From: Escherichia coli
GTDB taxonomy: Bacteria > Pseudomonadota > Gammaproteobacteria > Enterobacterales > Enterobacteriaceae
Assembly (NCBI RefSeq): GCF_001677475.2
Contig: NZ_CP015229.1
Direction: 5' to 3' (one strand)
DNA length: 64,000 nt
The position numbers were made by a program, and so were the translations under genes. A model generated the notes under the pieces. The model searched no databases and was not told the DNA's origin. It saw only the letters and a list, made by a program, of their open reading frames with translations. This document shows, piece by piece, positions 3,956 to 10,703 of the stretch (positions within the stretch are counted from its first letter, which is position 1; each line of letters opens with the position of its first letter).

Positions 3956-4971
3956 TACTTACGCCCCGCCGCTAACAGCTTGTCTAACTCGCCGCCGCTG
4001 GTGAAGTGGGTTTTCATCACTTCCGGCCAGGAGCCAAATTTGTCTTCCACGCGGAACAGATCGGTCTGCGGGAATTTGTCTTTCAGTTTGTCCATGACTT
4101 CCGGGTTATTTACGCGGTAGTAATAGTCGGTGATGATGGTTTGCGCCTGCGGGCTGTAGAGCCAGTTCAGGTAGGCTTTTGCTGCTTTTTCCGTACCGTT
4201 GGCCTGCACGTTTTTATCGACCCACGCCACCGGGAATTCCGCCAGAATGTTGGTTTTCGGAATCACCACTTCAAAGCCCTGCGCTTCATACTGTTTACGG
4301 ATGTTGTTCACTTCCGACTCGAAGCTGATCAGCACATCGCCCAGGCCGCGCTCGGCAAAAGTGGTGGTCGCGCCACGACCGCCGGTATCGAACACTTCAA
4401 CGTTTTTCAGGAACTGGGTCATAAACTGTTCGGTTTTGGCTTTATCGCCACCGTCAGCTTGATCCGCTACGCCCCATGCCGCCAGATAGGTATAACGCGC
4501 GTTACCCGACGTTTTCGGGTTCGGGAAAATCAGCTTCACGTCGGAGCGCACCAGGTCGTTCCAGTCGTGGATATTCTTCGGGTTGCCCTTACGCACCAGG
4601 AAGCCCATGGTGGAGTAGAACGGCGAGCTATTATTCGGCAGGCGCGACTGCCAGTCTGCCGGGATCAGCTTGCCTTTGTCATGCAGGATCTGTACGTCAG
4701 TCACCTGGTTATAAGTGACAACGTCGGCTTTTAAGCCCTGCAAAATTGCCAGCGCCTGTTTTGATGACCCGGCATGAGATTGTTTTATCGTCAGTTTGTC
4801 GCCGCCGTTATCTTTTGCCCACTGCTGTTCAAACGGGATATTCAGGGCGGCAAACAGCTCGCGGGAGACGTCATAAGAACTGTTCAGCAGTTCCGTTGCC
4901 TGTACATGGCCCGCCAGCAGCAGAGAAGCGACCAGCGCGAGTGAGTTCTTTTTCAGTAAGTTAACGGCCAT
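3955..4971 (-). CDS. cysP: Periplasmic thiosulfate-binding protein
   Basis: 338 aa with N-terminal signal peptide; matches CysP; first gene of the operon. Confidence 0.93.
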
Positions 4972-5274: not shown

Positions 5275-6066
5275 TCAGATGCCGACGCTAACCGTCTCCG
5301 GCAGTGTGCTGCCGCCATCAATCACATTCTGTGTACCGGTTAAATAACTTGATTCATCCGATGCGAGGAAGGCTGCCAGTTCGCCGACTTCCAGCGGATC
5401 GGCGAGGCGACGCATCGGGATTGCTTTTGCCATTTCAGTCAGCACCGATTCTGGATCTTCCGGGTTCGACTGGCGGGCAATGCTTTCCGCCATTGGCGTG
5501 CGAACGTATCCCGGGCAGATGGCGTTAACGCGAATACCAGACTGCGCGTACTCCACCGCCAGCGATTTAGTCAGGCCAACAATCGCCGCTTTCGTTAAGG
5601 CGTACGCCGTTTCACCCGGATCGGCCACCATATCGCCAGTGACCGAAGACATCATCACAATGCGACCATCTTTGCGGGCAATCATCTCCGGCAGCACCGC
5701 CTTCGTGACGTTCCATACGCCTTTAATATTGATATCAATATGGAAATCGCGATCTTCATCGCTCATATCGAGGAAACTGCCCAGACGACAAACGCCTGCG
5801 TTATTCACCAGGATATCAATGCGCCCTTCTTTTTCCTTCGCGCGCTTGATAGCTGCGGCTACCGACGCCGGGTCACGCACATCGGCGACAACCGCCGTAC
5901 AGCGATGACCACGACCACACAGTTCGTCCGCCAGTTTTTCGATCTCAGGGGAGATATCCAGCAAGATTAGGTTTGCGCCATGACGCGCAAAAGTTCTGGC
6001 AATTCCTTCGCCAATTCCCTGCAATGCGCCCGTAATCAGTGCTGTCTTGCCCGTGAGTTTACCCAT
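5275..6066 (-). CDS. ucpA: Short-chain dehydrogenase/reductase family oxidoreductase
   Basis: Translation from MGKLTGKTALITGA has the SDR glycine-rich NAD(P)-binding motif; 263 aa matches UcpA. Confidence 0.9.
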   Translation of the reverse strand: MGKLTGKTALITGALQGIGEGIARTFARHGANLILLDISPEIEKLADELCGRGHRCTAVVADVRDPASVAAAIKRAKEKEGRIDILVNNAGVCRLGSFLDMSDEDRDFHIDINIKGVWNVTKAVLPEMIARKDGRIVMMSSVTGDMVADPGETAYALTKAAIVGLTKSLAVEYAQSGIRVNAICPGYVRTPMAESIARQSNPEDPESVLTEMAKAIPMRRLADPLEVGELAAFLASDESSYLTGTQNVIDGGSTLPETVSVGI

Positions 6067-6194
6067 TTTAATGCTCTCCTTGTTAATACAGAGCGTTACA
6101 CTCCATTCCCTCTGAAAATACAGGATAAACAAAATATTGCTGCGGATCAGCTCACTAATTCAGGAAAATCTCAATTCAGTCGCTGCTTTATGCA

Positions 6195-7052
6195 TCATTT
6201 CAGGCGTTGCGTTAGCTCACTGCTGCGCTCAATCATTTTCAATGACTCCACATCATTGAGTTGCACAAGGCCAACAAACAGTAAATCGGTAACAGAATTT
6301 TGCGCCGTGCGGGTGGACATCGACGAGCTGCGCCATTCGGTTTCGCCAGAAACGGTATCGAGGGTGAAATGCGCCAGCCGCCGCAGCGGGGAATCGGTTA
6401 ACGAGGTAATGGCAATCACCGTTGCCCCCTGCTTTCGCGCTGCCTCGGCGCACAGCACAATCTCTTTTTTACTGCCGCTGTAAGAGATAGCGATTTGTAC
6501 ATCGCCTTTTTTTAGCGCCTGGGAAACGGTGGCTTGTACATGTGTGTCGGCTTCGCAGGCCACGCGATAGCCAATTTTCATCAGTTTGAATGAAAGATCG
6601 CGCCCCACCAGCGCCGACCCGCCCAGGCCCGTTATCTGGATAAACGGTGCTTTACTGATGACCTCAATGATTTTTTGCAGCCGCGCGTAGTCGAACAACG
6701 CGCAGGTTTGCTCCAGCGCCAGTTCTTTTTCGCGATTCAGTTTGCGGGCAATCACTTCCAGCGAATCATCACTGGTAATCGAACTGTGCAGGTGCAGCGC
6801 CGTGGCATTCGTTTTCTCCCGGCTGGCACTGTATTCGCCAATTAACGCCATACGCAATTCAGTAAATCCTTGCGCGCCGAGCTTCTGGGCAAACTTCACA
6901 ATACTCGACTGACTGATGCCGAGCTGTTTCGCCATCTTGCGCGAAGAAACGGATTTCAGCTCACTCACGTTGTCCTGCAGAAAGTCAGCAATTTTTTGCT
7001 CGTTCTCGGTAAATTCACTTTCCGCATTGCGTATTTTCGTCAGGTACAACAT
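6195..7052 (-). CDS. murR: RpiR-family transcriptional regulator of MurNAc catabolism
   Basis: Translation from [14 protein letters not shown] (285 aa) matches MurR; divergent from murQP. Confidence 0.9.
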
Positions 7053-7215
7053 CTTCCACTCTCCTGGGCTGGCAGCAAAAATTCCGCTTAAGTTCTTATG
7101 ACGCTCTTCACACTCTGCGAGTGTAGACTCAATGATTCCTTTAAGTCTGTCAATTCGGGATATATGATTCCATACATCTGCAATTATTTGATCGTAAATA
7201 GTAAGGTCACCACCG
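7053..7215. promoter_or_regulatory. murR-murQ divergent promoter/operator region
   Basis: 163-bp region between divergent start codons; holds inverted repeat ACACTC-tgc-GAGTGT at 7110-7124. Confidence 0.45.
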
Positions 7216-8112
7216 ATGCAACTTGAAAAGATGATTACCGAAGGCTCGAACGCCGCCTCGGCTGAAATTGACCGCGTATCAACGCTGGAAATGTGCCGGA
7301 TTATCAACGATGAAGATAAAACCGTGCCGCTTGCCGTTGAGCGCGTACTGCCGGATATCGCCGCAGCGATCGATGTTATCCACGCCCAGGTAAGCGGCGG
7401 CGGGCGTCTGATTTATCTCGGTGCGGGAACATCAGGTCGTCTGGGGATTCTGGATGCCAGCGAATGTCCGCCGACCTACGGCGTGAAACCGGGCCTGGTA
7501 GTTGGTTTGATTGCTGGCGGCGAATATGCTATTCAGCACGCGGTGGAAGGCGCGGAAGATAGCCGGGAAGGTGGTATTAATGATCTGAAAAATATCGGCT
7601 TAACCGCGCAGGATGTGGTGGTTGGTATTGCGGCCAGCGGACGCACGCCGTATGTGATTGCCGGACTGGAATACGCACGCCAGCTTGGCTGCCGCACAGT
7701 GGGAATTTCCTGTAATCCCGGGAGCGCTGTTTCAACTACCGCAGAGTTTGCCATTACGCCGGTAGTTGGGGCCGAAGTGGTCACTGGTTCTTCTCGAATG
7801 AAAGCAGGTACGGCGCAGAAACTGGTGCTCAACATGCTCTCCACCGGGCTGATGATTAAATCCGGCAAAGTGTTCGGCAACCTGATGGTCGATGTGGTCG
7901 CCACCAACGAAAAACTGCATGTGCGCCAGGTCAATATCGTTAAAAACGCCACCGGATGTAATACCGAACAAGCAGAAGCGGCGTTAATTGCCTGCGAACG
8001 CAACTGTAAAACTGCCATTGTGATGGTGCTGAAAAATCTCGATGCCGCAGAAGCTAAAAAACGCCTGGATCAACACGGCGGCTTTATTCGTCAGGTTTTA
8101 GACAAGGAATAA
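7216..8112 (+). CDS. murQ: N-acetylmuramic acid 6-phosphate etherase
   Basis: 298 aa SIS-domain protein matching MurQ. Confidence 0.95.
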
Positions 8113-8115
8113 CCC

Positions 8116-9540
<1,425 letters not shown>

Positions 9541-9543
9541 TAT

Positions 9544-9633
9544 CATGAAACGGACAATGCTCTATCTTTCTCTGCTGGCTGTTAGCTGCAGCGTCAGCGC
9601 CGCAAAATACCCTGTTCTGACAGAAGGTAGTTG
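9544..9633 (+). pseudogene. 29-codon ORF with signal-peptide-like N-terminus; possible remnant of yfeW (PBP4B)
   Basis: MKRTMLYLSLLAVSCSVSAAKYPVLTEGS then stop, in the slot where K-12 (from memory) carries yfeW; only 179 bp separate murP and yfeX. Confidence 0.3.
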
Positions 9634-9663
9634 ATCAAGTATATGCGGCGTTAAAGCAGTAAT

Positions 9664-9700
9664 AAAAAGGCCAGTCAGTAATGTTACTGCCTGGCCTTTA
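9664..9700 (-). terminator. Rho-independent terminator downstream of yfeX (may also serve murP)
   Basis: aaaggccag...ctggccttt 9-bp stem with inner cagtaa/ttactg stem; U-run follows on the minus strand. Confidence 0.65.
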
Positions 9701-9719
9701 ATCAATGAATCAGAAACGC

Positions 9720-10703
<984 letters not shown>

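What the first reader, a model, noticed from the sequence alone, without database searches (positions are those of the whole stretch)
9541..9719. yfeW (PBP4B) slot between murP and yfeX is empty except for a 29-codon signal-peptide ORF
From memory, K-12 carries yfeW (a class C penicillin-binding protein of about 430 aa) between murP and yfeX. Here the two genes are 179 bp apart, and the only ORF (9544-9633) encodes MKRTMLYLSLLAVSCSVSAAKYPVLTEGS then a stop. That looks like the start of a secreted protein cut short, which suggests a deletion removing almost all of yfeW.
Basis: partly seen in the sequence, partly recalled or inferred. Interest (0 to 1): 0.45.

Follow-up and report, generated by a model that had tools for sequence, protein, structure and literature searches.

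The report
Common yfeW (PBP4B) deletion remnant
The short gap between murP and yfeX is what is left of the non-essential cell-wall gene yfeW (pbp4B) after a 1,184-bp internal deletion; the same deletion is in about a quarter of sequenced E. coli, including BL21, Nissle 1917 and the species type strain, so it is ordinary.

Summary
murP ends at 9540, yfeX (minus strand) ends at 9720, and the gap is 179 bp. Its first 27 codons are identical to K-12 YfeW/PBP4B. At 9625|9626 they join, out of frame, to the last 37 nt of yfeW, which creates the stop. Compared with intact 433-aa alleles, the window differs by one clean 1,184-bp deletion (nt 82-1265 of 1302) between a 2-nt microhomology ((A/G)GT). This removes the whole catalytic domain. 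The operon's terminator hairpin (9666-9699) is kept. The allele is not private: 1,271 of 5,426 complete E. coli genomes have the same junction, including REL606, BL21(DE3), Nissle 1917, S88 and the type strain ATCC 11775. RefSeq already annotates the remnant as a truncated pseudogene. All six deletion alleles I examined share the junction register and a remnant-specific base (A at 9638) that nine intact alleles lack. This favours one old deletion spread by recombination. The remnant peptide shows no sign of selective constraint. Verdict: a real, well-explained and common gene-loss polymorphism of a dispensable, very weakly expressed penicillin-binding protein. Low interest.

The parts
8116..9540 (+). 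murP, intact (474 aa), upstream gene of the murQ-murP(-yfeW) operon
   Evidence: ORF list. 3 aa and 2.3% nt differences from K-12, no internal stops. The exact protein is common in public assemblies.
9545..9634 (+). 29-codon remnant ORF plus TGA stop. The ATG lies 4 nt after the murP stop. It encodes the YfeW signal-peptide region plus two out-of-frame codons (G S).
   Evidence: PGAP annotates the equivalent 87 nt in strains C, S88 and ATCC 11775 as 'incomplete; missing C-terminus' pseudogenes.
9545..9625 (+). 5' remnant of yfeW/pbp4B: codons 1-27, protein-identical to K-12 YfeW
   Evidence: Blastn 221/226 over 9400-9625 against K-12. Translations compared.
9625..9626 (+). Deletion junction. 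1,184 bp (yfeW nt 82-1265 of 1302) are missing between these two bases. The flanking microhomology is AGT (left) and GGT (right) in intact alleles.
   Evidence: Intact alleles L004, L005 and L009 align without any other gap.
9626..9662 (+). 3' remnant of yfeW: 1 nt plus the last 11 codons (VVDQVYAALKQ) plus the original TAA stop (9660-9662), now read out of frame. A at 9638 is specific to the deletion alleles.
9666..9699 (.). G+C-rich hairpin shared by the convergent murQP(-yfeW) and yfeX transcription units. It is probably a bidirectional intrinsic terminator. There is one copy here and two in K-12.
   Evidence: RNA fold of 9640-9719: -24.3 kcal/mol, z -3.8, 0 of 200 shuffles fold as well. 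The K-12 duplication was seen. The simple consensus terminator scan did not flag it.
9720..10619 (-). yfeX (porphyrinogen/Dyp-type peroxidase), intact, convergent downstream neighbour

Best explanation
The 179-bp gap is a pseudogene remnant of yfeW (pbp4B), the third gene of the murQ-murP-yfeW operon. One 1,184-bp deletion joined codon 27 to the last 37 nt of the gene, out of frame. It most likely arose by slipped or illegitimate recombination at a 2-nt microhomology, (A/G)GT. The new frame gives Gly-Ser-stop. The entire beta-lactamase-fold catalytic domain is gone, including the SxxK (SNTK), YSD and HTG motifs seen in the K-12 translation, so the strain makes no PBP4B. murQ, murP, murR and yfeX are intact. 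The murQP transcript should now end at the retained hairpin (9666-9699), about 125 nt after the murP stop. PBP4B is non-essential, redundant with seven other class C PBPs and made at only about 20-30 molecules per generation, so the loss is probably neutral or nearly so. The allele is old and widespread. It most likely arose once and has been moved between E. coli backgrounds by homologous recombination. Shown here: the remnant's identity, the breakpoints, the frequency, the shared junction and the shared marker base. Inferred: the deletion mechanism, the termination site, neutrality, single origin.
For: The deletion length of 1,184 is 2 mod 3. Intact alleles encode a 433/434-aa PF00144 beta-lactamase-family protein at this slot. 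The same contiguous junction is in 1,271-1,272 of 5,426 complete genomes, including REL606, BL21(DE3), Nissle, S88 and ATCC 11775. It is also in L016, which is 99.99% identical to the window. All 6 deletion alleles share the junction register and A at 9638, and 0 of 9 intact alleles have it. L008 has a murP flank essentially identical to intact L004 (1 difference in about 1,300 nt) but 4 differences in the 114-nt remnant, which indicates a recombination import. The remnant has 6 nonsynonymous and 4 synonymous segregating sites, against 1 and 2 in intact alleles. Flanking genes are intact. The hairpin folds strongly. Operon structure, non-essentiality and low abundance come from PMC5061867 and PMC4916385.
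Against: The junction base 9626 is G in the window and E. coli B type but A in the B2 type and L008. So two independent deletions in the same register cannot be excluded. Single origin rests on only 6 deletion and 9 intact alleles read in detail. No expression, termination or fitness data exist for this allele. The consensus terminator scan did not call the hairpin. The dN/dS-type tally is too small to be significant.
Confidence: 0.93

Rival explanations
1. The same 1,184-bp deletion arose independently two or more times at a microhomology hotspot, for example once giving the GAAGGT junction (window, E. coli B) and once giving GAAAGT (B2, L008).
For: Two junction variants differ at the base just 5' of the GT microhomology. 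This is what two crossover points in an (A/G)GT repeat would give. The flanks of deletion alleles do not cluster together: the window's right flank is 133/133 identical to K-12, and L008's left flank equals intact L004.
Against: A 2-nt microhomology is a weak hotspot. All six deletion alleles share A at 9638, which is absent from nine intact alleles, so recurrence would need a parallel substitution. One point mutation after a single event explains the A/G difference more simply.
Confidence: 0.15
2. The 29-codon ORF is a functional small secreted or membrane peptide kept by selection. It would be translationally coupled to murP.
For: The ATG lies 4 nt after the murP stop. The ORF is open and of the same length in all six alleles, and it keeps an n-h-c signal-peptide layout.
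Against: The constant length follows automatically from the frameshift stop right at the junction. Among six alleles, amino-acid changes occur at five of the 27 yfeW-derived codons (Y7C, V13I, A20T, P23T, T26I/A) plus G28S at the junction (6 nonsynonymous and 4 synonymous sites in codons 1-27), so there is no sign of constraint. PGAP treats it as a pseudogene. The parent gene is translated at only about 20-30 molecules per generation (PMC4916385).
Confidence: 0.03
3. The short form is ancestral, and K-12-type genomes gained yfeW by insertion.
For: None specific. About 23% of genomes, including the type strain, have the short form.
Against: The gap contains both ends of the yfeW reading frame in the correct order, joined out of frame. 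A signal peptide with no mature domain makes no sense as an ancestral state. The intact gene has no mobile-element boundaries at 9625|9626.
Confidence: 0.01
4. The gap is an assembly or sequencing artefact (a collapsed region).
For: None.
Against: The identical junction is in 1,271 independently finished genomes. It is also in an independent assembly that is 99.99% identical to the window.
Confidence: 0.005

Closest known systems
The yfeW/pbp4B pseudogene allele of E. coli B (REL606, BL21(DE3)), Nissle 1917, S88 and the type strain ATCC 11775
   Same: Same 1,184-bp deletion, same junction register, same 29-codon remnant, same single terminator hairpin. The E. coli B/C type is 98.3% identical over the 179-bp gap and has the same G at the junction.
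   Different: The window has 3 substitutions relative to the B/C type in the gap. It comes from a lineage 1.4-2.8% diverged from every complete E. coli genome searched. B2-type carriers have A at the junction, a 2-nt indel before the ATG, and also lack murR, whereas the window keeps murR.
Intact yfeW (pbp4B, b2430) of E. coli K-12: penicillin-binding protein 4B, a class C low-affinity PBP and DD-carboxypeptidase, third gene of the murQ operon
   Same: Same locus between murP and yfeX. The first 27 codons and the last 11 codons plus stop are homologous, and the downstream hairpin is the same.
   Different: The window lacks nt 82-1265, that is the whole PF00144 catalytic domain. K-12 also has one extra Lys codon (434 versus 433 aa) and about 182 bp of REP-like sequence flanked by a duplicated hairpin between yfeW and yfeX.
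Microhomology-mediated internal gene deletions that leave two-ended pseudogene remnants (ordinary bacterial gene decay)
   Same: Short (2-nt) microhomology at the breakpoints, an out-of-frame fusion, no mobile element at the junction.
   Different: Nothing unusual, apart from its high population frequency and its presence in several divergent backgrounds.

Membership tests
yfeW/pbp4B gene (as a locus or remnant) | Position between murP and yfeX, on the same strand as murP | tested here: met
   K-12 annotation. Window gene order and colinear alignment.
yfeW/pbp4B gene (as a locus or remnant) | Sequence homology to yfeW at both ends of the gene | tested here: met
   81-nt 5' part: 27/27 aa identical to K-12. 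37-nt 3' part: aligned to the yfeW end and terminator at 66/72.
Functional class C PBP / PF00144 beta-lactamase-fold serine hydrolase | Catalytic domain with the SxxK, Y-x-N/D and K/H-T-G motifs | tested here: not met
   The motifs SNTK, YSD and HTG lie in the K-12 translation, inside the deleted nt 82-1265. The remnant encodes only 29 aa. Motif assignment rests on general knowledge of the family.
Functional class C PBP / PF00144 beta-lactamase-fold serine hydrolase | Open reading frame of about 430 aa | tested here: not met
   Stop at 9632-9634 after 29 codons.
Sec-type signal peptide | Basic n-region, hydrophobic h-region, small-x-small cleavage motif | tested here: inconclusive
   By eye: MKR / TMLYLSLLAVSCSV / SA-A. 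No signal-peptide predictor is available. The sequence is identical to the N-terminus of the periplasmic protein YfeW.
Intrinsic (Rho-independent) terminator | Stable G+C-rich hairpin followed by a U tract | tested here: inconclusive
   Hairpin 9666-9699: the fold of 9640-9719 gives -24.3 kcal/mol, z -3.8. It is followed by TTTAAT on the + strand and TTTTTATT on the - strand. The consensus scan reported no terminator. The literature places the K-12 operon terminator after yfeW (PMC5061867).

The most novel reading that the evidence does not exclude
The yfeW deletion is one ancient event that has persisted alongside the intact gene across deep E. coli lineages (B2, part of phylogroup A, the window's own rare lineage). 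It has been carried between backgrounds by recombination because losing PBP4B is advantageous in some niches. In B2 it is combined with loss of the repressor murR, which would rewire MurNAc recycling.
Probability: 0.1. Interest if true: 0.3.

Novelty: already known. Interest (0 to 1): 0.08.

Why it matters
It matters little beyond bookkeeping. The strain, like BL21, REL606, Nissle 1917 and the E. coli type strain, lacks PBP4B. Its murQ operon therefore has two genes rather than three. That is worth knowing when K-12 is used as the reference for cell-wall enzymology, beta-lactam target inventories or transcriptomics: a 'yfeW' signal in these strains can only come from the 118-nt remnant. If the single-origin, recombination-spread reading holds, the locus is a convenient small marker of recombination between phylogroups. 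It does not open any long-standing question.

Tried and rejected
1. Two exact-pattern scans of the species-representative genomes for the junction returned nothing. Both patterns do match ATCC 11775, which I recall (from memory) being the GTDB E. coli representative. So these scans say nothing about E. coli and only weakly suggest absence in other species.

2. I tried to name the source organism. The best complete E. coli genomes are only 97.2% (first 24 kb) and 98.6% (36-60 kb) identical.

3. A literature search for a description of the deletion (yfeW, pbp4B, REL606, BL21) found only papers on the intact K-12 gene. Jaeger and Mayer 2008 is not held.

4. An Rfam scan of the whole window found no RNA family at gathering score, so there is no known sRNA or riboswitch in the gap.

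5. The consensus promoter/terminator scan found no terminator and only one weak promoter-like site, inside yfeX.

6. I rejected the functional micro-ORF, insertion-in-K-12 and assembly-artefact readings. The reasons are given under rival explanations.

Full report
**Observation.** murP occupies 8116-9540 (+). yfeX occupies 9720-10619 (-), and the mechanical ORF extends to a GTG at 10646. The gap contains an ORF with ATG at 9545, 4 nt after the murP TGA. The mechanical ORF list also shows a 47-codon TTG ORF on the opposite strand (9562-9705), so "the only ORF" is slightly overstated. I found nothing that supports this antisense ORF.

**Reference order.** In K-12 MG1655 the annotated order is ucpA, murR, murQ, murP, yfeW (b2430, "penicillin binding protein 4B", 434 aa), yfeX, yfeY, yfeZ, ypeA, amiA. 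The window has the same genes in the same order and orientation, all intact, except yfeW.

**Anatomy of the gap.**
- Window 9400-9625 aligns to the K-12 murP 3' end plus the first 81 nt of yfeW at 221/226 (E 8e-112). Codons 1-27 are protein-identical.
- Window 9626 onward aligns to the last 37 nt of yfeW and its downstream hairpin at 66/72 (E 2e-23).
- Against intact 433-aa alleles from other genomes (L004, L005, L009), the window aligns as two gap-free blocks separated by exactly 1,184 bp (L004 4511-5694, which is nt 82-1265 of the 1,302-nt gene).
- Since 1,184 is 2 mod 3, the frame shifts and reads GGT AGT TGA.
- In intact alleles the left breakpoint reads GAA|AGTTCG and the right TTG|GGTAGTTG. 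The only homology is therefore (A/G)GT, with 2 nt exact.
- No mobile-element sequence lies at the junction.
- The deleted part contains the whole PF00144 beta-lactamase-fold domain (for the Pfam assignment of the intact products). It includes the SNTK, YSD and HTG motifs visible in the K-12 translation. Calling these motifs catalytic rests on general knowledge of the family.

**Extra K-12 differences.** Two further differences from K-12 are peculiarities of K-12, not of the window. One is an extra Lys codon before the stop (434 versus 433 aa). The other is about 182 bp of REP-like palindromic sequence between yfeW and yfeX, flanked by a second copy of the hairpin. Together 1,184 + 3 + 182 = 1,369 bp, which accounts for the K-12 gap of 1,548 bp against 179 bp here.

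**Terminator.** Positions 9666-9699 form a strong hairpin: the fold of 9640-9719 gives -24.3 kcal/mol, z -3.8, and none of 200 shuffles folds as well. It is flanked by an A-run on one side and TTTAAT on the other, between convergent genes. The literature places the K-12 murQ-operon terminator after yfeW (PMC5061867). I infer that the murQP transcript now ends here, about 125 nt past murP. The simple consensus scan did not call it a terminator, so this remains an inference.

**Population frequency.**
- A 651-nt probe across the gap is contiguous in 1,272 of 5,426 complete E. coli genomes. In the others it splits at the junction, with pbp4b annotated in between.
- The 179-bp gap alone gives 1,271 carriers.
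- Carriers include E. coli B strains REL606 and BL21(DE3) and their derivatives, Nissle 1917, S88 and the species type strain ATCC 11775.
- NCBI's PGAP pipeline already annotates the 87-nt remnant in these records as a pseudogene: "hypothetical protein; incomplete; missing C-terminus".
- An independent assembly (GCA_016118665.1) is 99.99% identical to the window over 8.9 kb and has the identical gap. This excludes an assembly artefact.

**One origin or several?**
- I compared six deletion alleles (window, strain C, S88, L008, L013, L014) and nine intact alleles.
- All deletion alleles share the same junction register. All have A at window position 9638 (GATCAAGT), where every intact allele has G.
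- They differ at 9626: G in the window and the B/C type, A in the B2 type and L008. This is either one later substitution or a second crossover point in the imperfect (A/G)GT repeat.
- L008 has a murP flank essentially identical to intact L004 (1 difference in about 1,300 nt), yet 4 differences in the 114 nt of remnant, and it carries the deletion-specific bases.
- The window's right flank is 133/133 identical to K-12.
- This mosaic pattern fits an old deletion allele moved between backgrounds by homologous recombination. I give about 0.8 to single origin and 0.15 to recurrence.
- Divergence between the window and S88 remnants is about 5%, so the allele is not recent.

**Is the remnant ORF functional?** Its constant length follows automatically from the stop created at the junction. 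Among the six alleles there are 6 nonsynonymous and 4 synonymous segregating sites in codons 1-27 (Y7C, V13I, A20T, P23T, T26I, T26A), plus G28S at the junction. The nine intact alleles have 1 and 2. The sample is too small for a test, but it shows no constraint. The parent protein is made at only about 20-30 molecules per generation (PMC4916385). I treat the ORF as a dead remnant (0.97).

**Consequence.** PBP4B is a low-affinity class C PBP with DD-carboxypeptidase activity. It is not essential and is one of eight class C PBPs (DD-carboxypeptidases and/or DD-endopeptidases) in E. coli (Vega and Ayala 2006 as cited in PMC5061867 and PMC4916385). Its loss is therefore probably neutral or nearly so. 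That is an inference; I have no fitness data.

**Comparison with what is known.** This is the same allele as in E. coli B, Nissle 1917, S88 and ATCC 11775. It is not a functional member of the PBP/beta-lactamase family, because the catalytic domain and the full-length ORF were tested and are absent. It is a member of the yfeW locus by synteny and by homology at both ends. I found no paper in the held library that describes the deletion, but it is visible in public annotation of the best-known E. coli strains. I therefore rate it already known and of low interest (0.08).

**Limits.**
- The source lineage is unnamed. It is 1.4-2.8% diverged from every complete E. coli genome searched.
- The two species-representative scans were uninformative.
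- Outgroup polarity was not checked directly.
- The haplotype analysis used 15 alleles, not the whole collection.

Noticed in passing
L001 (K-12) 5908-6146, against window 9663-9719: K-12 has about 182 bp more than the window and most intact alleles between the yfeW stop and the yfeX stop. The extra sequence is REP-like palindromes flanked by a duplicated copy of the terminator hairpin (L001 5911-5939 and 6095-6126). It looks like a REP/BIME insertion with a roughly 27-bp target duplication, or a loss by recombination between the repeats.
   Followed up: partly
L006 5732-6443 and L010, same slot as window 9663-9665: Some genomes carry an IS200-type Y1 transposase (152 aa) inserted between yfeW and the hairpin. 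The yfeW-yfeX spacer is therefore a small insertion hotspot: REP in K-12, IS200 in these genomes, and a different downstream rearrangement in L011.
   Followed up: partly
L003 (S88) 637-917; L015 (ATCC 11775) 4598-4878; L013, L014. Window equivalent 6067-7215.: B2-type genomes lack the repressor gene murR entirely, so ucpA directly abuts murQ. That junction is contiguous in 1,047 of 5,426 genomes, all at least 99% identical. All four such genomes I inspected also carry the yfeW deletion. The window keeps an intact murR. These strains may express murQP without MurR control.
   Followed up: partly
window 6195-8112 (murR, murQ): murR and murQ differ from K-12 by about 6% at the DNA level (7 aa each), against 1.6-2.5% for the neighbouring genes ucpA, murP, yfeX, yfeY, yfeZ and ypeA. 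This suggests an imported or long-diverged allele block ending near the murQ/murP boundary.
   Followed up: partly
whole window; L016: No complete E. coli genome in the collection is closer than 97.2% (1-24000) or 98.6% (36000-60000). An NCBI assembly (GCA_016118665.1) is 99.99% identical over 8.9 kb, and the window's exact MurQ protein is rare, found in 51 blocks. The source is a rare Escherichia/Shigella lineage that I could not name.
   Followed up: partly
window 9562-9705, minus strand: A 47-codon TTG-start ORF lies antisense across the remnant and the hairpin. There is no evidence that it is a gene. It is probably a chance ORF.
   Followed up: no
Genome-contig collection: Both junction patterns match ATCC 11775, yet the scans of species-representative genomes returned nothing. 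That collection apparently does not contain this E. coli genome or a deletion-carrying one, so negative scans there should not be read as absence in E. coli.
   Followed up: yes
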